A stretch of DNA of 64,000 nucleotides, taken from a virus. Taxonomy: Duplodnaviria; Heunggongvirae; Uroviricota; Caudoviricetes. Both the position numbers and the translations under genes were made by a program. The notes below the pieces were generated by a model, which was not told the DNA's origin, made no database searches, and saw only the letters and a list, made by a program, of their open reading frames with translations. The DNA lies in IMG/VR virus record IMGVR_UViG_2778261161_000002. One strand, given 5' to 3'. Below are positions 2,127-61,282 of this stretch, piece after piece; the first letter of the stretch is position 1; every line of letters begins with the position of its first letter.

Positions 2127-4062
2127 CAATCCTTTACGAATTAATATTCAGTCTACTTTTGCTGATACGATCCCCGGCTATATGCCAAGTCGCTGGTCTT
2201 CAGAAGAATTAAGCGAAGATGACCTGATTTTTGAGGCGGCGACCTTAGAAGATATTGAGCTTGCCTATATGGGCAATGAAATTCTGGTTGTGTCTGACGA
2301 AGCTATGTTTGAGTCCATAACTACAACCAGAATTCGGTTAGCTCAAACAATGCGAGCTTTCGTCCGTGCGCTGAATCGTGGCCTGAATGGTACGAATATT
2401 ATGGCAGGGACTGATGAAGCTGGGACCGATGAAAATGGACGTAATTGTATTGGTGGTGCGATTATCGGTCGTGTACGTCGGGTAGCTAATATCCCTGTTT
2501 TGACCGCGCAGATACCGCTTACTGACGGGCAGAGTACAAGCATAATTTTCCACTCTCCAACAGCTGACGGGGCAAAAATAAAGAGTAACGACGAGCTTGT
2601 TGCATTTCAGTTTTTACTTAATAAGCGTAACGTAACTCACGTTGTCGCCCCGATTGGTGGGAGAGATGTTTCTTTAAGCCAGGTATGCCAGGCGCTATCT
2701 AATTTGATTGAGCGTAACAGCGAAAAATTTAAGAAAGCAAAAGAGCGCCAGGACAAAATGAAGGCAGATATTGAGAGTTATCTCAATGAAGCAGATAAAC
2801 TGGCAGAAGAACGGTCAATAATGATTGATCAGGTGGACGTTGCGCAACGTGGGCTGACTGAAAAGCGTGCTGCTCTTACGGAGATGCAAAAAAAACTTGA
2901 TGCCCAGAAAGCTATCAATGAGGAATTACAAGCAAAACGCGATAAATTGTTGTCTGCTAAAGGTGAAAAAACGAAAGAACGAGCGTTTAGTGACCAGCTG
3001 CGACATGTAAAACATAATCTTGCCATTGACGGAAAAACAGTGCTTGATAATGGCGCTGAAGTTAATTATGTCACGTCCGGCAGTGACAATTTCGTTACGA
3101 TAGTAGCACCTGAAGGTAAATTCAGTATTGATGCCAGTGCTGTCAAAGGAGGCAGTTTGGCAGATGCTGCAACCAAATTACTTAAAGCCTACCGAGAGCA
3201 TAACGCAGATAAATATAAAGTTGATGTGTTACCAGGCCAGTTGGAAGACTCCGAACCACCACAGACAGACCCCGAAACGAACCCAGTATTACAACCAGAG
3301 AGCCAAGATGTAGGTGAATACCACTATGCACTTCAATCTCGCCCGGCTGGTGTTGGTGCTGTTCCGGATGGAAATAAAGCCGTGCTTGATCGTCCTGACC
3401 AGGCTGATCAGTATTACGAATATGCTCGTCACGGTATCATTACGTATGACCGTAAACTGACAGATGAAGAAGTCAGCCAGTACGAGTTGCTTTATCTTCC
3501 TGATGAAGATGAGCTGAAAGATTTTGCAGGCCAATTGGTTGCGTCCAGCATGTCGAAACATATTGATGGCTATGTGGACCTGTTTGGCAGTGACCTGAAA
3601 ACATTCAAGGCGCAAGTGAAAATTCTTTTCCGCAAAGCGTTTCCAAACGTGGCGTATCCACTTAGTGATGGGGAGAACCTTTTCATTATGGACGTGTATA
3701 ACGCCCTTCAAAATCATTCAAGCGAAGTAAAAACAGAGCATGTGGTTGAGCCAGAATCACAACCACAACCACAACCACAACCACAACCAGCACCAGAACA
3801 GGAGTCGGAGCCAGAAGAAGCGGGTGAATCAGCAAGTGAAGCTGATCAGGAAGCAGATAAAGCGCTGGAGTACCTGAAATCCGTGCCGGAGCAGTTTACA
3901 TCCCGCGATCTGACGGTCATCAGTGCTGAACTTGATCATGTGCAGGAAGCAGCAAACGCTCTAATCAGTGCAGGTCGATACGACGAGAACGAAGCCACTG
4001 TGGGTGCAGCAGTTGACTACCTGATCAATATTCTGGCTGAAATTCAGCAGGGAGGTGTTTAA
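2119..4062 (+). CDS. large virion-associated protein (DarA-like by position), with PQ repeat linker
   Basis: about 647 aa ORF, GGAGGA before ATG 2119; coiled-coil centre, (PQ)5 linker, acidic tail; no motif proves DarA identity. Confidence 0.45.
   Translation: MINNPLRINIQSTFADTIPGYMPSRWSSEELSEDDLIFEAATLEDIELAYMGNEILVVSDEAMFESITTTRIRLAQTMRAFVRALNRGLNGTNIMAGTDEAGTDENGRNCIGGAIIGRVRRVANIPVLTAQIPLTDGQSTSIIFHSPTADGAKIKSNDELVAFQFLLNKRNVTHVVAPIGGRDVSLSQVCQALSNLIERNSEKFKKAKERQDKMKADIESYLNEADKLAEERSIMIDQVDVAQRGLTEKRAALTEMQKKLDAQKAINEELQAKRDKLLSAKGEKTKERAFSDQLRHVKHNLAIDGKTVLDNGAEVNYVTSGSDNFVTIVAPEGKFSIDASAVKGGSLADAATKLLKAYREHNADKYKVDVLPGQLEDSEPPQTDPETNPVLQPESQDVGEYHYALQSRPAGVGAVPDGNKAVLDRPDQADQYYEYARHGIITYDRKLTDEEVSQYELLYLPDEDELKDFAGQLVASSMSKHIDGYVDLFGSDLKTFKAQVKILFRKAFPNVAYPLSDGENLFIMDVYNALQNHSSEVKTEHVVEPESQPQPQPQPQPAPEQESEPEEAGESASEADQEADKALEYLKSVPEQFTSRDLTVISAELDHVQEAANALISAGRYDENEATVGAAVDYLINILAEIQQGGV
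3758..3788 (+). repeat. (CACAAC)x5 tandem hexanucleotide repeat encoding PQPQPQPQPQ
   Basis: perfect tandem repeat read directly in the sequence inside the 2119..4062 CDS. Confidence 0.85.
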
Positions 4063-9886: not shown

Positions 9887-9916
9887 TGTTAGAAAATTAA
9901 TTTGCTGTTTCTAAAT
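9887..9916. promoter_or_regulatory. paired TGTTAGAAAA / TTTCTAAAT motif (operator-like site B)
   Basis: motif family member ahead of the c4/icd/ant module. Confidence 0.4.
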
Positions 9917-10470: not shown

Positions 10471-11177
10471 TGGATATCTGCATTCTTGAAAAGCCATCAA
10501 TGACCAGCATTGAGATCGCGGAGCTGGTGGGAAAACGTCATGACAATGTGAAGCGTACCATTGAAACATTAGCCGAATCCGGCGTTATTGTTCGTCCTCA
10601 AATTGAGGATGAACCAAAAATAGATGTAATGGGGCGTTCTCGATTAATTCAGGTGTTCCGATTTAGCGACGAGCAAGGCAAACGAGACAGTATCATTGTA
10701 GTCGCACAGCTTTGTCCTGAGTTTACTGCCCGGCTGGTGGACCGCTGGCGCGAACTGGAAGAACAAGTACGCCAGCCGTTGACCGAAATAGAGATGATCG
10801 CCGCAATGGCTGCAAATGCAGTTCAGCAGCAAAAGCGGCTTCATGCTGTTGAGTCAAAGGTTAGCCAGGTCGCTGAAACCGTCGAGCAAATCAAGAAGGG
10901 CAATATGCCAGATGGTTACATTGGCTACCGCCAGCTGGCGGCGAAATGCGGCCTGACTGAAGCCAAATGTCGCAACCTTGTCAACGCTTACCGGATTCCC
11001 ACCGATACACATGAGTTTTTAACTCCAGAGGGGGTATTGTCGCGTCGTTCCATCGTGGCCTTATCTCCCTTCATGAATGCTTTTAACCGGATGATGTCGG
11101 AGGCTGAACACCGAGGAAAACGCTGGTATCACCCCAAAATGGGGCAATTCCAGGTGATCGGTTGGGGAGGTGAGTGA
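10470..11177 (+). CDS. ant: Rha-family antirepressor-like regulator
   Basis: 235 aa; N-terminal SIEIAELVGKRHDNVKRTIETL matches the Rha domain signature as recalled; paralogue at 50455..51396. Confidence 0.55.
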   Translation: MDICILEKPSMTSIEIAELVGKRHDNVKRTIETLAESGVIVRPQIEDEPKIDVMGRSRLIQVFRFSDEQGKRDSIIVVAQLCPEFTARLVDRWRELEEQVRQPLTEIEMIAAMAANAVQQQKRLHAVESKVSQVAETVEQIKKGNMPDGYIGYRQLAAKCGLTEAKCRNLVNAYRIPTDTHEFLTPEGVLSRRSIVALSPFMNAFNRMMSEAEHRGKRWYHPKMGQFQVIGWGGE

Positions 11178-18916: not shown

Positions 18917-19351
18917 ATGACGACACTAATTGACACTGTAAAACCGACGGAATCCTACCTTGAGGACATTTTGCCGCAGGCGCTCAATGGCAGGAGTGAA
19001 GAGGCGTTTCTGGATGCATATCTGAATGGCATGGTGGAAAGGCTGAAACGAGATCCACAGCTTTATCACCTTTATGGGCCGTGGTGGCCTGCGCTTAAAA
19101 CGTTATTGCTGGAGCGCGGCGACATATCATTTGGACAAGTTGTAGATAGTGATGTGGCAGAGATCTACAAAATGAGTCGCCCGGCGCTTACGGTTTTGGC
19201 TGGGCATCTGTATTCGAGCGATCGCCTGGAAAATGACGCGGTATACAATCCTGTTCATGCTCTGGAAGTCGCACCTTATGCCGATGATACAGAGCCATAC
19301 GTGTACACAAGTTACGACGAGTCTATAGAGAAATATCGAATCATGGGGTAG
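18917..19351 (+). CDS. hypothetical protein
   Basis: 144 aa ORF directly after darB. Confidence 0.45.
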   Translation: MTTLIDTVKPTESYLEDILPQALNGRSEEAFLDAYLNGMVERLKRDPQLYHLYGPWWPALKTLLLERGDISFGQVVDSDVAEIYKMSRPALTVLAGHLYSSDRLENDAVYNPVHALEVAPYADDTEPYVYTSYDESIEKYRIMG

Positions 19352-19353
19352 CC

Positions 19354-19614
19354 ATGCGAAAGAATCGTAGGTTTACGGTCGAAGACCTAAAGGAATATTC
19401 CATATCGAAGGGGTATGTCCTTGAGTTCCACCGATACAAGAAGGTTTTTACGCTGCGAAAAGCAGAAAACCCCGCGAACTGGAGCTGGGTATACTTTCCT
19501 CACACCGATGATAAGTTGGTAGAACTTGTTGATGATTTAACCTATGAAGGTTGGTTGATCGCAATCGACAAGACAATCAAAGAATTATCCGAACAGGATA
19601 AAATAACCCTTTAA
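19354..19614 (+). CDS. hypothetical protein
   Basis: 86 aa ORF, tightly spaced. Confidence 0.4.
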   Translation: MRKNRRFTVEDLKEYSISKGYVLEFHRYKKVFTLRKAENPANWSWVYFPHTDDKLVELVDDLTYEGWLIAIDKTIKELSEQDKITL

Positions 19615-19750
19615 AAATAACAGGTTGGGTAAATGCCATGCGATTTACCCTCCTTGTTGATTAAGGTCACTCTTTACTCTAAAAGCAAATCCGACCTGTT
19701 GCATATAGACCATCCTTGAGTAGTATCTCTCTTGTTTTATAAATCTAACG

Positions 19751-20245
19751 TTGTTGTTATTATTTCGCATATTTACTATCAATAGGTGTGTTAGAAAAAT
19801 AGCGCGAAAGAGAAGGCGTCGCAGTGAATATTCTGAAACATCCCCACATGCCGCAGCTCTTAGAGAACTGGAGAAAAACCCAGATCTAATCAAAAGGAAC
19901 CATGAGCATTACGAGCAGGTTCGCGTCCTGGACTGGTTGTATCGCAATATGCGTTATGTGTATGAGCATACTCACGCCACTCCAAACGGTGGCCTGCGAG
20001 GCATAAGGACGGCAATAAAAATGGTGGCAGAGGGCCAAAAGAAGGGATATCCCGATCTTTCTATAGACCTTGCTTGTGGGGGATACCACGGAATGCGCAT
20101 TGAGATGAAACATGGGAGAAATCGCCTGACTCCCGAACAACTCGTCTGGATGACCCGCCTCACTGAAGCCGGTTACTACTGCTTTGAGGCGCGCAGTGCC
20201 GCTGAAGCCATAAAAGCTATCACGGAGTATGTTTGTCTTGATTAA
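19751..20245 (+). CDS. VRR-NUC domain nuclease (start uncertain, probably near 19937-19949)
   Basis: C-terminal 100 aa carry the VRR-NUC pattern TPNGG...GYPDLSIDL...RIEMKHG...LTPEQLVWM; track start is TTG and an operator-like motif lies inside the 5-prime part. Confidence 0.5.
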   Translation: MLLLFRIFTINRCVRKIARKRRRRSEYSETSPHAAALRELEKNPDLIKRNHEHYEQVRVLDWLYRNMRYVYEHTHATPNGGLRGIRTAIKMVAEGQKKGYPDLSIDLACGGYHGMRIEMKHGRNRLTPEQLVWMTRLTEAGYYCFEARSAAEAIKAITEYVCLD

Positions 20246-20259
20246 ACGGAGAAATCGTT

Positions 20260-20460
20260 TTGCGTTTACTTAACGTGGCAGAACTTATCCCTGCAGGAAC
20301 TAATGCTATCGCTCGTCGTCGCTCATGGCAGCAGGCTCTATGTATTGAGATCTCGAAACGTATCAATGGAAGTTTTGAAGCTCGCAATATTGTTACTGGC
20401 GATAAGGTTCACATAACCCCGGAAAGTGCAAGCGCTGATGATTGGGAGTTTGTGCATTGA
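20260..20460 (+). CDS. small DUF2829-like protein (Tad2-like fold candidate)
   Basis: 66 aa; ARRRSW ... ADDWEFV fits the DUF2829 signature as recalled. Confidence 0.4.
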   Translation: MRLLNVAELIPAGTNAIARRRSWQQALCIEISKRINGSFEARNIVTGDKVHITPESASADDWEFVH

Positions 20461-20756
20461 GCAAAAAATATCATGTGAGTCTGGCGTTCGCTGACGATGC
20501 GGGGAGGACGCGGAGTATCACGTTGAGCACGCCGGTTAAGGCTGTGACAGCGCCGTTAATCCGTGAAGCTCTCAGAGAGCTGGAATTGGGGGAAAACTCG
20601 GCACTGTTGTCGGTTAGTTGGTTAGGGAAAATGTCAGAGAAACAATACGTGGATGGAGTTACCCCAATAACAGTAATGAGGCTACTTTCATTGCTGCAAT
20701 GGGCCATCGTACCTGTATTTATCGCGTATCTTATTTATCAGGCTGCAACACAGTAA
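20442..20756 (+). CDS. small C-terminally membrane-anchored protein
   Basis: about 100 aa, C-terminal hydrophobic helix LSLLQWAIVPVFIAYLIY; overlaps upstream gene; start uncertain. Confidence 0.35.
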   Translation: MGVCALSKKYHVSLAFADDAGRTRSITLSTPVKAVTAPLIREALRELELGENSALLSVSWLGKMSEKQYVDGVTPITVMRLLSLLQWAIVPVFIAYLIYQAATQ

Positions 20757-20763
20757 TTGCATA

Positions 20764-20790
20764 AAAACCCGCCAATTAGCGGGTTTTTTG
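20764..20790 (+). terminator. rho-independent terminator
   Basis: AAAACCCGC-CAATTA-GCGGGTTTTTTG. Confidence 0.75.
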
Positions 20791-20831
20791 TTTATTGCAT
20801 CTTCCGATACCGTCATCAAACTAATAAAATA

Positions 20832-20852
20832 TGTTAGAAAACTAATTTAACA
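20832..20852. promoter_or_regulatory. TGTTAGAAAACTAATTTAACA palindromic motif (operator-like site D)
   Basis: motif family member 18 nt before the ATG at 20870. Confidence 0.4.
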
Positions 20853-20869
20853 AAGTGACGGGAACAGCA

Positions 20870-21982
20870 ATGAGTCAACACACTGATACTTCTAATCTGG
20901 AAATTATCTCGACAGCAATTGAAACGCTGCGCACACAAATCGCTCTTATACAGAAACGGAATCCGGGTGATGACCTGTCAAAGCGACTGCACGAGAGTGT
21001 CATTGCCACTACAGATAACCTGGTGGCGGAAATCAACAAGCTGCTTGATGATGGGGCAGTTGATTACAATAAGCTGGTGGATCAGTTTGAGGAATACCAA
21101 CAAGCTGTTAATGATGGCTTGATCCGTTTTTCACAAGTCACAGGCGTATCAGCGACAGTTGAAAGCCTGGGTGATGCAGTTAATCAATTTGCCGCGAATA
21201 TGCGTAATGAGATCGGCAATCTGGAAGCGCGTCTTGAACAGGCAAATACACTGCGTAAATCTGCCGAAGCCGATTTGAACCGTTACAAAAAAGACTATCC
21301 GCCCAGCCTGACAAAGCGGCTGGATGTTGCGGAGAAGGATAACCGCGCGCTGAAAAGAGAGCGCCGGGAACTAAAAGAGCGTTTAACCAAGCTCAATCAG
21401 CAATGCATTGATTATCAAGGCGAAGGCGTCACACTGCGTAAAAAGTTAGCTACAGCGCAGAGCATTATCGAAACATTAAAGCGAGAGTGCTCACAGCTTG
21501 GTCACGATCTGAACCGTGCTTGTGGCATGGGACAAAGACCAGAGACATTTCCACTCATGTATGATGGGCGGGATGCCATTGCCTACATCCATGAGTATCC
21601 GCACGGCCTGGTTGCGGAAACTGGGCAGCGTGGCGAAGCACTGCTGACGGCTAATTACCATCAACAAATCAGAACCAATCGCCTGTTAACGATGGATGTG
21701 ATCCCATCGGTATGGGGAACGCCGCTTTACTATCGCCTGCCGGGCTTCGAAAAGGACTGGAATACCGACATAGACGAATGTCTCGCAGATAAAATTATGG
21801 CGTACCTGGAGACGGATTTTCCGCGCTTATATCGCCGGATTATGGACTCTAAGGATGCGCCAATCGATGAATTAAAAATGCGTCCGGAGACGCTGGAGGC
21901 AATCAAGCAGACGGAGTTTGATACTGTATTCAGTGTGGCCTGCATTCCAAGCTGTTTCCATGAAAGCATCCCGTTCATGTAA
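20870..21982 (+). CDS. hypothetical coiled-coil protein
   Basis: 370 aa; long N-terminal coiled coil, Cys/His-containing C-terminus. Confidence 0.5.
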   Translation: MSQHTDTSNLEIISTAIETLRTQIALIQKRNPGDDLSKRLHESVIATTDNLVAEINKLLDDGAVDYNKLVDQFEEYQQAVNDGLIRFSQVTGVSATVESLGDAVNQFAANMRNEIGNLEARLEQANTLRKSAEADLNRYKKDYPPSLTKRLDVAEKDNRALKRERRELKERLTKLNQQCIDYQGEGVTLRKKLATAQSIIETLKRECSQLGHDLNRACGMGQRPETFPLMYDGRDAIAYIHEYPHGLVAETGQRGEALLTANYHQQIRTNRLLTMDVIPSVWGTPLYYRLPGFEKDWNTDIDECLADKIMAYLETDFPRLYRRIMDSKDAPIDELKMRPETLEAIKQTEFDTVFSVACIPSCFHESIPFM

Positions 21983-33381: not shown

Positions 33382-34083
33382 ATGAATTACATGACAACGA
33401 AAGAGCTTTTTAAGTTCCTTCCCAAATACAAAGCTCACAAAAACGTTAGTGCATCGAAAATCAAAAATGTTGTTATTTTCGGAGTAACTGCTTCCCCACT
33501 TTGGGGCTGCATCGAACTCGTTGAACCAAAAGGGGCAACAGTTTGTGTTGACGCAATTTTTTTACAAAAACACCGACCAAAAACTGGCGGGTATCTGATC
33601 GTTTATGAAAACGGTTATCTGTTCTATGCCCCGGAGAAACCATTTGAGCAATGCTATGGCCTGGTTAACGACGCCTCCGAAAATGGGGTATCGCTCAGCA
33701 TTGAAGGTCACAATGGGGTGACATTCATTACAGCCAGGGACGTAACTATTTCTGCTGGCGGTATCGCTACTCTACAAGAAGAAATCGACCTTGAAGCAGC
33801 CGACTTTTCTGACGCGCTGATGTGGCTGAAGGATGGCAAGAAAGTTGCTCGACGCGGGTGGAACGGCGAAAACCAATTCTGCTGGCTGGTTCCTGACAAA
33901 CAGGGTGCTTCAAGACTAACCCCTATAAAACATGCCGCAAACGGAGAGCTTGAAATCAATTTCGACTCTCCTCTTGCTCCTTATGGTGCGCATTTCGTTT
34001 TGAAAAATGCACAAGGTGTAGTTGTTCCATGGATGCCTTCTGTAGGTGACCTGCTGGCATGTGACTGGTTTGTAGTGGAGTGA
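33382..34083 (+). CDS. protein with C-terminal DUF2829 (Tad2-like) domain
   Basis: 233 aa; FSDALMWLKDGKKVARRGWNG ... VVPWMPSVGDLLACDWFVVE fits DUF2829 as recalled. Confidence 0.55.
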   Translation: MNYMTTKELFKFLPKYKAHKNVSASKIKNVVIFGVTASPLWGCIELVEPKGATVCVDAIFLQKHRPKTGGYLIVYENGYLFYAPEKPFEQCYGLVNDASENGVSLSIEGHNGVTFITARDVTISAGGIATLQEEIDLEAADFSDALMWLKDGKKVARRGWNGENQFCWLVPDKQGASRLTPIKHAANGELEINFDSPLAPYGAHFVLKNAQGVVVPWMPSVGDLLACDWFVVE

Positions 34084-50239: not shown

Positions 50240-50455
50240 ATGGCTACTATCCCTACCCCAACTCATTCTGAATTTATCTGGCGTTTCTATTCCTGCCAAA
50301 AACACCTGTATATCTGCGTCATGGCTGCAACCGAAGCAGAAGCTCGTTCATACCTTCCTGAAGAACCCTGCATTTTTGCCGCACGCTTCACTCTTGATGC
50401 GATGGAGATCCTCAATTACTGGAATCTGCCAATGAACTGCGTGGAGGTGCACTGA
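50240..50455 (+). CDS. icd: Icd-like small protein (copy 2)
   Basis: 71 aa; paralogue of 10246..10470. Confidence 0.45.
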   Translation: MATIPTPTHSEFIWRFYSCQKHLYICVMAATEAEARSYLPEEPCIFAARFTLDAMEILNYWNLPMNCVEVH

Positions 50456-51396
50456 TGAATCTGTCCATCTCTCAAAAAGCGACAATGACCAGCATTGAGA
50501 TCGCGGAACTGGTAGGAAGTCGCCAAGATAGTGTGAAGAGAACTATCGAAACACTGGCTAAAAAGAGTGTGATCCAATTTCCACAATCTGTGGAAATTGA
50601 AAATAAACAATCAGTTGGCCCTCGTCGATTTTCCAAGGCTTACATCTTTGAAGGCGAACAAGGCAAGCGCGATAGTATCATTGTCGTCGCACAGCTCTCT
50701 CCGGAATTCACCGCCCGGCTGGTGGACCGCTGGCGCGAACTGGAGAATGCCAGGGGACCGTTAAAATCAAAAGCCGAAATCCTGGCTGAAATGGCGCAAA
50801 TGCATCTTGAGCATGAACGCCGGATCAACGCCGTAAATGCCCAGGTAGCCGAGGTATCAGCACAAGTATCGATGGTCGCTGAAACACTCGAGCAAATAAA
50901 GAAAGGCAATATGCCGGAAGGCTACATTGGCTACCGCCAGCTGGCGGCGAAATGCGGCCTGACTGAAGCCAAATGTCGCAACCTGGTTAACGCTTACCGG
51001 ATACCCACTGATACGCATGAGTTTTTGACTCCCGACGGTTTGCTTGCGCGACGCTCAATTGTGGCCCTGGCCCCCTTCCGGAAAGCCTTTAAGCAGGTTA
51101 TGTCGGAGGCAGAACCACGCAACAAACGCTGGTATCATCCAAAGATGGGGATGTTTCAGGCAATCCACCATCCTGTGCCTGAAAGTCCAAAGGCAAACCT
51201 GTCGTTGCATACCGCCAGAGAGAGGATTAAAACAGGGTATGCAATCGTATGCCGTCGAGCATCTTGGCCTGAAGGTGTATGGGTATGGCCCGAAGGTGGA
51301 TCACGAAAGCACTGGCGCACTATCCGGGATGGGAAAATCCATGCGATTGATTTAGCTCCAGAGGATGTTGTTGCTACGGACTGGATTGTTAGTTAA
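50455..51396 (+). CDS. ant: Rha-family antirepressor-like regulator (copy 2)
   Basis: 313 aa; N-terminal and central regions nearly identical to 10470..11177, different C-terminus. Confidence 0.55.
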   Translation: MNLSISQKATMTSIEIAELVGSRQDSVKRTIETLAKKSVIQFPQSVEIENKQSVGPRRFSKAYIFEGEQGKRDSIIVVAQLSPEFTARLVDRWRELENARGPLKSKAEILAEMAQMHLEHERRINAVNAQVAEVSAQVSMVAETLEQIKKGNMPEGYIGYRQLAAKCGLTEAKCRNLVNAYRIPTDTHEFLTPDGLLARRSIVALAPFRKAFKQVMSEAEPRNKRWYHPKMGMFQAIHHPVPESPKANLSLHTARERIKTGYAIVCRRASWPEGVWVWPEGGSRKHWRTIRDGKIHAIDLAPEDVVATDWIVS

Positions 51397-61247: not shown

Positions 61248-61282
61248 TGTTAGATAATTAACATGCATTTTCTAACATAAAT
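61248..61282. promoter_or_regulatory. TGTTAGATAATTAACA palindrome plus TTTTCTAACATAAAT (operator-like site N)
   Basis: motif family member immediately upstream of the rdgC homologue. Confidence 0.45.

What the first reader, a model, noticed from the sequence alone, without database searches (positions are those of the whole stretch)
19751..20756. VRR-NUC nuclease / mini-DUF2829 / membrane-anchored protein operon with a problematic start
A VRR-NUC nuclease domain is followed by a 66-aa DUF2829-like protein and an overlapping tail-anchored membrane protein, all ending at a strong terminator. The only in-frame upstream start for the nuclease is TTG at 19751, and an operator-like motif (19789-19798) lies inside that extension. 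The true start is probably near 19937-19949, or the gene is translated unusually.
Basis: partly seen in the sequence, partly recalled or inferred. Interest (0 to 1): 0.45.

Follow-up and report, generated by a model that had tools for sequence, protein, structure and literature searches.

The report
Phage nuclease operon, ambiguous start codon
This is an ordinary three-gene operon of a P1/D6-type phage-plasmid (junction-cutting nuclease, small unknown protein, head-completion protein); its only oddity is that the nuclease gene's annotated first 16 codons look like promoter and repressor-site DNA, which leaves the gene without a convincing normal start codon.

Summary
The window is a D6-type P1-family phage-plasmid: 99.1% identical to Escherichia phage D6 over 19300-21100, and 100% to E. 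coli plasmid pE2863-2 over 19560-20300. The finding covers D6 orf12 (PmgM-like VRR-NUC nuclease), orf11 (66 aa) and orf10 (PmgR homologue with an extra C-terminal membrane segment). A hairpin lies upstream and a strong terminator downstream.

TTG 19751/19754 are the only canonical in-frame upstream starts. TGTTAGAAAA (19789-19798) is a real dispersed motif whose placement mirrors P1 C1 operators. The DUF2829 label for orf11 is not supported.

A start at 19937-19949 is refuted. Residues 29-62 are conserved, under purifying selection, and include helix 1 of the fold.

The TTG extension (19751-19798) evolves like non-coding DNA, has no Shine-Dalgarno sequence and overlaps a conserved extended -10 promoter. 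It is out of frame in 12 of 99 related plasmids because of an A4/A5/A6 tract. Sister lineages start at different places: GTG at window 19790, TTG-ATG at 19799-19804, or ATG upstream.

The functional protein most likely begins near 19799. Initiation there would use near-cognate AUA; alternatively, weak initiation at the TTG adds a dispensable tail. Interest is modest, and this is mainly an annotation problem.

The parts
19619..19658 (+). Imperfect hairpin after orf13. It probably acts as a weak terminator at the end of the upstream darB-ulx-orf13 unit.
   Evidence: Inverted repeat with 16-nt arms, 81% complementary. The scan lists a terminator-like site at 19627-19650. The stem is kept in the L008-L010 lineages.
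19699..19726 (+). Upstream sigma-70-like promoter candidate, TTGCAT-16-TAGTAT. A transcript from here would include the TTG codons.
   Evidence: Both hexamers are identical in four lineages that are 76-100% identical overall, while the 16-nt spacer between them diverges. It matches only 8 of 12 consensus positions, so the scanner missed it. The pattern is unique in the window. The promoter role is inferred.
19736..19763 (+). Best promoter candidate: -35 TTTATA (TTTACA in 18 of 19 close relatives), 16-nt spacer, extended -10 TGtTATTAT. The predicted transcription start is about 19769-19771.
   Evidence: It is the only site the scanner reports in 19300-21100. It has the highest score (9.4) of all motif-associated promoters under my own scoring matrix. 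The TGtTA(T/C/A)T block is conserved in the D6, L008, L009 and L010 lineages, and in L008 it lies upstream of an in-frame stop. Positions 19753-19765 are invariant in 19 D6-type sequences.
19751..19798 (+). Annotated N-terminal extension (codons 1-16 from TTG 19751/19754). It is most likely non-coding or dispensable: promoter spacer, -10 box, leader and operator.
   Evidence: Polymorphism is 6 non-synonymous (including TTG>TAG) against 2 synonymous changes, versus 3:31 downstream (Fisher p=3.9e-4). No pairing to the anti-Shine-Dalgarno sequence (dG +1.5, against -4.5 to -6.8 for neighbouring genes). It is out of frame in the A4 and A6 alleles.
19784..19788 (+). Shine-Dalgarno remnant AGGTG (GGGTG in most relatives), 10 nt upstream of ATA 19799.
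   Evidence: Anti-Shine-Dalgarno duplex dG is -3.7 for ATA 19799. Relatives have GGTGA before their starts: L011 caGGTGAgcgATG, L113 ctGGTGAaaGTG, L115 GGTGA followed by 9 nt and TTG.
19787..19805 (+). Operator-like site with core TGTTAGAAAA at 19789-19798. It is probably the binding site of this phage's C1-type repressor.
   Evidence: The copy number far exceeds chance. Copies sit just upstream of c1, lpa, repL, icd/ant, ref, simB and hrdC. The core is conserved in lineages only 76-80% identical while its flanks diverge. The P1 operator consensus is absent from the window. Binding itself is inferred.
19795..19799 (+). A-run that varies in length between natural alleles: A5 here, A4 and A6 elsewhere.
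   Evidence: A4 occurs in L042, L043 and L057, and A6 in L039. The A4 allele matches 12 of 99 PLSDB plasmids exactly.
19799..20245 (+). Constrained coding sequence of the PmgM-like VRR-NUC nuclease (148 codons counted from ATA 19799). The putative catalytic residues are D102, E118 and K120 in 164-aa numbering.
   Evidence: Pfam VRR_NUC. PDB 4QBL at E=3.8e-24. phrog_2363 at E=1e-48 and phrog_5702 'Holliday junction resolvase'. 31 synonymous against 3 non-synonymous polymorphisms. The L008 lineage has TTG-ATG at the positions of 19799-19804. PGAP starts the A4 allele at this ATA.
20260..20460 (+). orf11: a 66-aa protein of unknown function, with a TTG start preceded by a GGAG Shine-Dalgarno sequence. 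The model is a small beta-barrel.
   Evidence: phrog_7206, unknown function. Only close relatives were found. AlphaFold2 mean pLDDT 83.6. No significant fold match. Shine-Dalgarno dG -6.6.
20457..20756 (+). PmgR homologue (99 aa) starting at TTG 20457, which overlaps the orf11 stop codon as TTGA.
   Evidence: hhalign against P1-type PmgR gives probability 96.2%, E=2.8e-9, aligning aa 2-64 with 6-68. phrog_3177 at E=1.6e-7. Shine-Dalgarno GGGAG, dG -6.8. The D6 annotation uses the same start.
20682..20738 (+). C-terminal hydrophobic (transmembrane-like) segment of the PmgR homologue. P1 PmgR lacks it.
   Evidence: Kyte-Doolittle 19-residue mean is 1.99 here and 1.75-1.97 in relatives, against a maximum of 0.88 in P1-type PmgR. 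See also the alignment.
20763..20788 (+). Intrinsic terminator that closes the operon.
   Evidence: 10-pair stem with 5 G-C pairs, a 6-nt loop and a T-run.
20832..20848 (+). Second copy of the operator-like motif, upstream of the pmgS homologue (probable start ATG 20870).
   Evidence: PGAP starts the gene at 20870. Shine-Dalgarno dG is -4.5 for ATG 20870 against +0.2 for GTG 20855.

Best explanation
What it is (shown): 19751-20756 is the pmgM-orf11-pmgR operon of a D6-type P1-family phage-plasmid.

The three products:
- PmgM is a stand-alone VRR-NUC (PD-(D/E)xK) nuclease. By homology to psNUC (4QBL) it most likely acts as a dimer that cuts four-way DNA junctions. This is inferred from homology; the P1 counterpart is non-essential.
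- orf11 is a small beta-barrel protein of unknown role.
- The third protein is a PmgR homologue. [quoted passage not shown] Here it carries an added C-terminal membrane anchor.
- orf11 and pmgR have good Shine-Dalgarno sequences with TTG starts, and they are translationally coupled through a TTGA overlap.

Regulation (inferred):
- The operon has its own promoter region at 19699-19763.
- It probably falls under the prophage repressor through the dispersed operator TGTTAGAAAA at 19789-19798. This parallels the C1 operator upstream of pmgL-pmgM in P1-type phages.

The 'problematic start' (inferred):
- The start region has turned over during evolution around that operator.
- A relative (L113) starts at a GTG that corresponds to window GTT 19790. 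That single G-to-T difference completes the operator core.
- Other lineages use new starts: TTG-ATG at the position of 19799-19804, or ATG/TTG a few codons upstream of the motif.
- In the D6 type, no canonical start lies between the operator and the conserved domain.

Conclusion:
- The first 16 annotated codons are regulatory or leader DNA, or at most a dispensable tail.
- The functional protein begins near 19799.
- It is made at a low level, either from near-cognate AUA 19799 (Shine-Dalgarno remnant GGTG 10 nt upstream) or, on longer transcripts, from the TTG codons that lack a Shine-Dalgarno sequence.
For: Identity of the element:
- 99.1% to phage D6, with the matching annotation.
- 100% to pE2863-2 over 19560-20300.

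Nuclease:
- Pfam VRR_NUC, 4QBL at E=3.8e-24 and PHROGs.
- D102, E118 and K120 are invariant.
- Stand-alone VRR-NUC proteins are dimeric junction-resolving enzymes (PMC4103454).
- P1 pmgM is non-essential and pmgR is essential (PMC10695390 and PMC9024508).

PmgR homology and transmembrane tail.

Operator:
- Motif statistics.
- Positions next to c1, lpa, repL, icd/ant and ref.
- P1 has 22 dispersed asymmetric 17-bp C1 operators (PMC8546580).
- A P1-type operator lies 58 nt upstream of pmgL in phage JL22, where 0.01 are expected by chance.

Start region:
- The extension shows 6 non-synonymous to 2 synonymous changes, including a stop, against 3:31 downstream (p=3.9e-4).
- Substitution density in the extension matches the intergenic region, counted by hand from the list.
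- A4 and A6 alleles exist, and 12 of 99 plasmids carry A4.
- The TTG codons have no Shine-Dalgarno sequence, while ATA has a moderate one.
- The TTG codons lie inside the best conserved promoter.
- The L008 lineage has an in-frame stop upstream and TTG-ATG after the motif.
- The L113 GTG corresponds to window 19790.
- PGAP uses ATA in an A4 plasmid.
- AUA initiates at about 0.1-3% of AUG in E. coli (bioRxiv 10.1101/063800).
Against: - There are no experimental data on the transcript 5' end or the protein N-terminus.
- AUA is a poor initiator, and no chromosomal E. coli gene is known to me to use it.
- The TTG codons are in frame in about 85% of D6-type alleles. They could be reached from the upstream conserved promoter candidate (19699-19726) or by read-through of the weak hairpin.
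- A4 alleles could simply be null alleles of a non-essential gene.
- In the L009/L010 lineage the start (TTG or ATG) lies upstream of the motif, so a motif inside the coding sequence is tolerated.
- The synonymous/non-synonymous contrast between codons 1-16 and codons 17-28 alone is not significant (p=0.22).
- N-terminal tails in this family are poorly conserved in any case.
- Assigning the motif to the repressor rests on position and analogy, not on binding data.
- I could not read the D6 genome paper.
Confidence: 0.6

Rival explanations
1. The annotated start is right. Translation begins at TTG 19751 or 19754 and gives a 163-164-aa protein whose first 15 or so residues form an unconstrained tail. 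A4 alleles are loss-of-function variants of a dispensable gene. The operator simply lies inside the coding sequence.
For: These are the only canonical in-frame starts. Both the D6 authors and some PGAP runs use them. They are in frame in 15 of 19 close relatives. In the L010 lineage an ATG lies upstream of the motif. A conserved upstream promoter candidate would transcribe them. There is a faint resemblance to the P1 N-terminus, MLRFT against LFRIFT. P1 pmgM is non-essential.
Against: There is no Shine-Dalgarno sequence (dG +1.5), unlike every neighbouring gene. The codons sit in the spacer and TG of the best conserved promoter. The evolutionary pattern is neutral and includes a stop at codon 1. 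The tail is hydrophobic, unlike the basic tails of all relatives. The frame is broken in 12 of 99 plasmids although the gene is otherwise under strong purifying selection. The L008 lineage has an in-frame stop between the same block and the motif.
Confidence: 0.3
2. The true start is TTG 19937 or ATG 19949, giving a 98-102-aa protein.
For: PGAP annotates a 102-aa product from TTG 19937 in pE2863-2. ATG 19949 has a moderate Shine-Dalgarno sequence (dG -4.6). Three relatives have ATG at 19937.
Against: Residues 29-62 are conserved across the whole family, including P1 PmgM. Differences between lineages in this stretch fall almost entirely at third codon positions. Within the clade the ratio is 6 synonymous to 1 non-synonymous. 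Pfam and 4QBL alignments start at aa 46-48, so helix 1 would be lost.
Confidence: 0.03
3. Translation starts at GTG 19824, which has the best ribosome-binding site in the region but is in another frame (a 21-codon ORF). It then enters the nuclease frame by a -1 frameshift, for example at A-AAA-A near 19874-19879.
For: GTG 19824 has Shine-Dalgarno AGAAGG 7 nt upstream (dG -5.1). The GTG is also present in the L008 lineage.
Against: The GTG is absent from the L009, L010, L011, L113 and L115 lineages. There is no canonical X-XXY-YYZ slippery heptamer (read from the sequence). A shift at 19874 would skip the SPHAAAL motif, which is conserved in the nuclease frame. No stimulatory RNA structure was found (z=0.26).
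Confidence: 0.02
4. In the D6 lineage the nuclease gene is a decaying pseudogene that lost its start codon.
For: There is no convincing canonical start. Frame-breaking A-run alleles circulate. The P1 homologue is dispensable.
Against: The core shows 28 synonymous against 2 non-synonymous polymorphisms within the D6 clade. It keeps 90-93% amino-acid identity to the L008 lineage at about 80% DNA identity. The catalytic residues are intact.
Confidence: 0.04

Closest known systems
Escherichia phage D6 orf12-orf11-orf10 (NC_050154 / MF356679)
   Same: 99.1% DNA identity over 19300-21100, with the same three genes, the same flanks (darB, ulx and orf13 upstream; the pmgS homologue downstream) and the same TTG annotation for orf12.
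   Different: The window differs at a few sites. It has -35 TTTATA where 18 of 19 relatives have TTTACA, and A instead of G at 19784. Over 19560-20300 it is identical to E. coli plasmid pE2863-2, where PGAP calls a 102-aa product instead.
Phage P1 PmgM (P1-type, 192 aa; phrog_2363)
   Same: 50-52% identity from residue about 29 to the end, the same VRR-NUC domain, and a basic stretch before the SPHA motif. The P1-type operon is also preceded by a C1 operator.
   Different: P1-type proteins carry a conserved N-terminus, M(L)RF(T/S)EE(W/F)(L/F), with an ATG coupled to pmgL, and a longer C-terminus. D6-type genes lack both, sit after ulx/orf13 instead of pmgL, and have a variable start.
psNUC, the stand-alone VRR-NUC of Psychrobacter (PDB 4QBL)
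   Same: Sequence match at E=3.8e-24 over the whole domain, with the GYPD...E-x-K motif aligned. psNUC is a dimer that cleaves Holliday junctions symmetrically (PMC4103454).
   Different: psNUC has no basic N-terminal tail. Activity and oligomeric state of the phage protein were not tested here.
[quoted passage not shown]
   Same: Profile match at probability 96.2%, E=2.8e-9, over residues 2-64 against 6-68, including the KYH, LAF and LGKM(T/S)E motifs. It also lies immediately upstream of pmgS.
   Different: D6-type proteins have about 35 extra C-terminal residues containing a transmembrane-like helix. tblastn alone does not detect P1 PmgR.
P1 C1 repressor operators (17-bp asymmetric consensus ATTGCTCTAATAAATTT; 22 copies in P1)
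   Same: Many dispersed copies, asymmetric, sometimes paired as imperfect palindromes, and placed at c1, lpa, repL, icd/ant and ref (PMC8546580).
   Different: The sequence is different: TGTTAGAAAA(c/t)TAAttt. The P1 consensus has no match in the window even with 3 mismatches allowed. Binding was not tested.
Tad2 / DUF2829 (PF11195) small phage proteins
   Same: orf11 shares two short signatures (ARRxSW near the N-terminus, ADDWE near the C-terminus) and its small size. The top BFVD fold hit is a 66-aa DUF2829 protein.
   Different: All tests are below significance. The model easily detects the window's real Tad2-like domain at 33382-34083.

Membership tests
VRR-NUC (Pfam PF08774), PD-(D/E)xK nuclease | Match to the family HMM above the curated cutoff | tested here: met
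   26.2 bits against a cutoff of 23.8, E=9e-6, aa 46-150. Precomputed PF08774 hits also appear on relatives.
VRR-NUC (Pfam PF08774), PD-(D/E)xK nuclease | Catalytic D ... E-x-K motif present | tested here: met
   GYPD102 and E118-M-K120 are invariant in 7 diverse homologues. They align with GYPD and E-I-K of 4QBL.
VRR-NUC (Pfam PF08774), PD-(D/E)xK nuclease | Complete fold, including the N-terminal helix | tested here: met
   The 4QBL alignment spans profile positions 41-156 against chain residues 3-132. This holds only if translation starts upstream of about 19890.
VRR-NUC (Pfam PF08774), PD-(D/E)xK nuclease | Dimeric, structure-specific (four-way junction) cleavage | not testable with these tools
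   Known for psNUC, stNUC and saNUC (PMC4103454). Inferred here by homology only.
P1 PmgM family (phrog_2363) | Profile match over most of the protein | tested here: met
   E=1.1e-48, protein residues 12-147 against profile positions 37-173 of 192. 50-52% identity to P1-type PmgM.
P1 PmgM family (phrog_2363) | Conserved N-terminus M(L)RF(T/S)EE(W/F)(L/F) with an ATG start | tested here: not met
   Present in P1-type loci L014-L027. Absent from D6-type lineages, whose tails are short, basic and variable.
DUF2829 / Tad2-like (PF11195), for orf11 | Match to the family HMM | tested here: not met
   No hit for the window protein at E<=10. 2 of 9 relatives hit at E=0.056. The positive control in the same window scores E=2.7e-21.
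DUF2829 / Tad2-like (PF11195), for orf11 | Fold similarity to Tad2/DUF2829 structures | tested here: inconclusive
   The model has pLDDT 83.6. There are no PDB hits below E=0.087 and no Tad2 among them. The top BFVD hit is a DUF2829 protein, but at E=0.015 and TM 0.36.
P1 PmgR (head completion factor) | Sequence or profile homology | tested here: met
   hhalign probability 96.2%, E=2.8e-9. phrog_3177 at E=1.6e-7.
P1 PmgR (head completion factor) | Small soluble protein of about 72 aa ending just before pmgS | tested here: not met
   D6-type proteins are 97-101 aa with a hydrophobic C-terminal segment, and a terminator plus operator separates them from pmgS.
P1 PmgR (head completion factor) | [quoted passage not shown] | not testable with these tools
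   Shown for P1 only (PMC9024508).
C1-type repressor operator of P1-like phages | Many dispersed copies of one asymmetric site, some paired | tested here: met
   9 exact 10-mers and 12 exact 9-mers; 0 of 100 shuffles reach the observed count. Paired copies occur at 9887, 26157, 44200, 48772 and 61248/61277.
C1-type repressor operator of P1-like phages | Located at the genes that C1 controls in P1 (c1, lpa, repL, icd/ant, ref) | tested here: met
   Coordinates were mapped onto the D6 annotation. For example, one copy lies 18 nt before the c1 ATG. Which P1 genes C1 controls is partly taken from my own knowledge of the P1 literature.
C1-type repressor operator of P1-like phages | Matches the P1 consensus ATTGCTCTAATAAATTT | tested here: not met
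   0 matches with up to 3 mismatches. This would be expected if D6 has a different immunity specificity (inference).
C1-type repressor operator of P1-like phages | Bound by the repressor | not testable with these tools
   Needs a gel-shift or footprinting experiment.
Genes initiated at a near-cognate (non-AUG/GUG/UUG) codon | Conserved near-cognate codon with a ribosome-binding site and no canonical alternative in frame | tested here: inconclusive
   ATA 19799 is invariant in 19 sequences, and GGTG lies 10 nt upstream (dG -3.7). In A5 alleles, however, the TTG codons remain in frame. In A4 alleles there is no canonical alternative.
Genes initiated at a near-cognate (non-AUG/GUG/UUG) codon | Experimentally mapped N-terminus | not testable with these tools
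   No data.

The most novel reading that the evidence does not exclude
D6-type phage-plasmids keep a junction-resolving nuclease under strong purifying selection although its gene has no usable canonical start codon. The ancestral GTG became GTT when the repressor operator core TGTTAGAAA formed over the ribosome-binding region. Sister lineages then recruited different replacement starts. The D6 lineage initiates at near-cognate AUA 19799, next to the operator. This keeps a potentially toxic nuclease at a very low level and makes the A4/A5/A6 tract harmless. If true, it would be a natural, conserved case of AUA initiation in an E. coli phage and an example of start-codon turnover driven by operator evolution.
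Probability: 0.35. Interest if true: 0.5.

Novelty: new member of a known kind. Interest (0 to 1): 0.3.

Why it matters
The main value is as an annotation correction.

- RefSeq and GenBank currently hold at least four incompatible starts for the same gene: TTG 19751, TTG 19754, ATA 19799 and TTG 19937. One of them, the 102-aa model, truncates the nuclease fold.
- The locus shows that an ORF extension can really be promoter-plus-operator DNA.
- It shows how the start codon of a non-essential phage gene can move between closely related lineages.
- If AUA initiation were confirmed, it would add a rare natural example of near-cognate initiation in enterobacteria.
- The motif catalogue gives a candidate operator set for D6-type immunity. 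This is useful for the many E. coli and Salmonella plasmids of this type.

Tried and rejected
- Start at 19937/19949: rejected on conservation, selection and fold coverage.
- A -1 frameshift from the well-placed GTG 19824 mini-ORF: rejected. The GTG is missing in several lineages, there is no slippery heptamer, and the shift would skip the conserved SPHAAAL motif.
- Leaderless mRNA starting at an in-frame codon: attractive for the L010 lineage, where ATG lies 7 nt after a -10-like box. It fails in the D6 type, where the matching codon is ATA or TTA and is polymorphic.
- A regulatory RNA structure in the leader: none found (z=0.26).
- The motif as a late (Lpa-type) promoter: P1 late promoters have a 9-bp inverted repeat close to a -10 box (PMC10695390). 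Here the paired copies are 11-13 nt apart and sit at early or immunity genes, so I favour an operator. My promoter scoring found no fixed distance between promoter and motif.
- The motif as the P1 operator itself: no match.
- Termination-reinitiation from the mini-ORF ATG 19782...TAG 19800-19802, present in 17 of 19 relatives: noted but not pursued, because this window has ATA at 19782-19784 instead of ATG.
- DUF2829 identity of orf11: tested four ways, and none was significant.
- Literature: the D6 genome paper and the P1 genome paper are not in the library. A search for 'pmgM' returned only unrelated glioma papers, and one search failed on a short term.
- The scan of reference genomes returned only P1-type relatives, not D6-type ones.
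Full report
**1. What the window is**

- Region 19300-21100 is 99.1% identical to Escherichia phage D6, a P1-like plasmid prophage.
- Region 19560-20300 is 100% identical to E. coli plasmid pE2863-2. 118 PLSDB plasmids carry related sequence, graded from 100% down to about 70% identity.
- In the D6 record the finding corresponds to three genes:
  - orf12, 'similar to P1 pmgM';
  - orf11, hypothetical;
  - orf10, 'similar to P1 pmgR'.
- These genes lie between darB-ulx-orf13 and a pmgS homologue.

**2. Checking the observation**

*The nuclease ORF*
- ORF 19751-20245 has a VRR_NUC domain above Pfam's cutoff.
- A profile of seven homologues matches the solved stand-alone VRR-NUC psNUC (4QBL) at E=3.8e-24 over the whole domain.
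- The GYPD...E-x-K residues are invariant.
- PHROGs places it in the P1 PmgM family, and partly in a 'Holliday junction resolvase' family.

*Start codons*
- Upstream of the domain, the only ATG/GTG/TTG codons in frame are TTG 19751 and TTG 19754. The next are TTG 19937 and ATG 19949.

*The other features*
- The 66-aa ORF and the overlapping ORF are present.
- The terminator at 20763-20788 is present.
- The C-terminal hydrophobic segment is present.

*The motif*
- TGTTAGAAAA has 9 exact copies in 64 kb.
- With one mismatch allowed there are 18 copies, against 5.5 expected. No shuffle reached that number.
- Its 9-mer core is the most frequent non-Chi 9-mer in the window.

*What fails: the DUF2829 label for the 66-aa protein*
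- Pfam gives no hit.
- hhalign against the window's own DUF2829 domain gives probability 0.5%.
- Foldseek against PDB finds nothing significant, and no Tad2.
- There is only a weak top hit in BFVD.
- As a control, the Tad2-like model detects the real domain at 33382-34083 at E=2.7e-21.

**3. The other two genes**

*The third ORF is a PmgR homologue*
- A six-sequence profile matches the 72-aa P1-type PmgR (found as an unannotated ORF in phage JL22) with probability 96.2% and E=2.8e-9.
- The alignment runs from residue 2, which supports the start at TTG 20457.
- That TTG has a GGGAG Shine-Dalgarno sequence 8 nt upstream (dG -6.8) and overlaps the orf11 stop as TTGA.
- D6-type proteins add about 35 residues containing a transmembrane-like helix that P1 PmgR lacks.
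- In P1, pmgM is non-essential (PMC10695390).

*orf11*
- It has a TTG start with a good Shine-Dalgarno sequence.
- Only close relatives were found.
- The model is confident and shows a small beta-barrel.

**4. What the motif is**

- I mapped the window onto the D6 annotation. Copies of the motif lie at these places:
  - 18 nt before the c1 repressor ATG;
  - about 80 nt before lpa;
  - on either side of repL, so also before icd/ant;
  - on both sides of ref;
  - before simB;
  - between gene 5 and hrdC;
  - after cre;
  - before pmgS, and twice after it.
- Several copies are paired as imperfect palindromes.
- P1 has 22 dispersed operators for its C1 repressor, with an asymmetric 17-bp consensus (PMC8546580).
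- That consensus is absent from the window.
- A P1-type operator with 2 mismatches, where 0.01 are expected by chance, sits 58 nt upstream of pmgL-pmgM in the P1-like phage JL22.
- I therefore read TGTTAGAAAA(c/t)TAAttt as the D6-type repressor operator. This is an inference from position and analogy, not from binding data.

**5. Where the nuclease gene starts**

- P1-type and other homologues align from residue about 28-31, with SPHAxAL..L..NPDL conserved.
- The fold begins at about aa 48.
- Positions 19835-19936 show 6 synonymous changes against 1 non-synonymous change within the D6 clade.

*(b) The TTG extension behaves like non-coding DNA.*

| Region | Non-synonymous | Synonymous | Note |
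|---|---|---|---|
| Codons 1-16 (19751-19798) | 6 | 2 | includes TTG>TAG at codon 1 |
| 19799-20245 | 3 | 31 | |

- These counts come from 19 close relatives. The difference is significant (Fisher p=3.9e-4).
- The invariant stretches inside the extension are the -10 box and the operator core.
- The TTG codons have no Shine-Dalgarno pairing at all, whereas every neighbouring gene has dG between -4.5 and -6.8.
- The TTG codons lie in the spacer of the best promoter candidate: TTTATA/TTTACA-16-TGtTATTAT at 19736-19763. The TG of TTG 19754 is the extended -10 TG.
- The -10 block of that promoter is conserved in four lineages. In the L008 lineage it lies upstream of an in-frame stop codon.

*(c) The A-run at 19795-19799 varies in length.*
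- It is A4 in three IMG/VR contigs, and A4 in 12 of 99 PLSDB plasmids from varied E. coli and Salmonella sources. It is A6 in one contig.
- In A4 alleles the nuclease frame opens at TAG|AAA ATA GCG, with no canonical start before 19937. PGAP starts that CDS at ATA.

*(d) Sister lineages start elsewhere.*

| Lineage | Start |
|---|---|
| L008 type | TTG-ATG at the positions of 19799-19804, with an in-frame stop upstream |
| L009/L010 type | TTG or ATG five to six codons before the motif |
| Enterobacter type (L011) | ATG preceded by GGTGA |
| Raoultella plasmid (L113) | ctGGTGAaaGTG-AGA-AAA-ATA-GCA |

- The L113 GTG corresponds to window GTT 19790-19792. One G-to-T change therefore both removes a start codon and completes the operator core.
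- The N-terminal tails are 13-29 residues long, basic and poorly conserved.

*(e) ATA 19799* is invariant and has the Shine-Dalgarno remnant GGTG 10 nt upstream (dG -3.7). AUA initiates at roughly 0.1-3% of AUG in E. coli (bioRxiv 10.1101/063800).

**6. Interpretation**

- The functional protein begins near 19799. The 16-codon extension is promoter, leader and operator DNA, or at most a dispensable tail.
- I cannot decide between two routes in this A5 allele:
  - initiation at AUA 19799, which I put at about 45%;
  - weak initiation at TTG 19751/19754 without a Shine-Dalgarno sequence, on transcripts from the upstream candidate promoter (19699-19726) or on read-through of the weak hairpin at 19619-19658. 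I put this at about 30-35%.
- Both routes may operate, and both imply low expression.
- Low expression fits the TTG starts of orf11 and pmgR, and fits a nuclease that could be harmful in excess. That last point is an inference.
- A decaying pseudogene is unlikely, because the core shows 28 synonymous against 2 non-synonymous polymorphisms.

**7. Comparison with what is known, and novelty**

- Every component belongs to a known kind:
  - the P1 PmgM/VRR-NUC family;
  - the P1 PmgR family, here with a new transmembrane tail;
  - a C1-type operator with a different sequence;
  - an intrinsic terminator.
- The genes are already annotated in phage D6 and in many plasmids.
- What appears unreported, as far as I could check without the D6 paper, is two things:
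  - the turnover of the start codon around the operator;
  - the absence of a convincing canonical start in the D6 type.
- The second point shows up as four incompatible database starts.

**8. Verdict**

- This is an ordinary operon with a genuine but modest annotation puzzle.

Noticed in passing
whole window, e.g. 407, 8054, 13944, 22148, 22213, 28108: The Chi sequence GCTGGTGG and its complement are strikingly over-represented. CCACCAGCA occurs 22 times and GCTGGTGGA 16 times; these are the two commonest 9-mers.
   Followed up: no
window 33382-34083 (+): A 233-aa protein whose C-terminal 92 residues are a strong Tad2-like / DUF2829 domain (PF11195, E=2.7e-21). It is a candidate anti-Thoeris sponge fused to an unknown N-terminal half. 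The window-to-D6 alignment breaks within this gene (33443-33737), and D6 annotates a shorter DUF2829 protein here (orf114).
   Followed up: partly
window 20855-20870: The D6 record starts the pmgS homologue at GTG 20855, which has no Shine-Dalgarno sequence (dG +0.2). ATG 20870 has one (dG -4.5), is the PGAP choice, and gives an 'MS...' N-terminus like P1 PmgS.
   Followed up: partly
window 9887, 26157, 44200, 48772, 61248-61277: At these sites the operator-like motif is paired with an inverted partner 11-13 nt away, for example TGTTAGATAattaacatgcatTTTCTAACA. Elsewhere it occurs as a single copy.
   Followed up: partly
window 19740 and 19784: This window carries minority alleles. It has -35 TTTATA where 18 of 19 relatives have the better TTTACA. 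It has A19784 where 17 of 19 have G; the G creates a 6-codon mini-ORF (ATG 19782 ... TAG 19800-19802) whose stop overlaps ATA 19799.
   Followed up: partly
window 20682-20738 and relatives L011, L113, L115: D6-type PmgR homologues all carry a C-terminal transmembrane-like helix that P1 PmgR lacks. This suggests a membrane-tethered head-completion factor.
   Followed up: partly
window 3758-3790: A short tandem hexamer array, (CACAAC)n, shows up among the repeated 11- and 12-mers.
   Followed up: no
window 10670-11144 and 50443-51150: Two related icd/antirepressor modules (about 76-87% identical pieces) are present. This matches the two Icd-like/Ant pairs annotated in D6.
   Followed up: no
L007 (Salmonella plasmid pSa1423-160k, NZ_MK356558): This relative differs from the others by many single-base insertions and deletions across the region. 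It looks like an error-rich assembly, so I left it out of the analysis.
   Followed up: no
L011 1051-1308 (Enterobacter plasmid): PLSDB labels the orf13 homologue as resistance gene 'farB, MFS efflux pump' at 100% identity. That is implausible for an 85-aa phage protein and is probably a database artefact.
   Followed up: no
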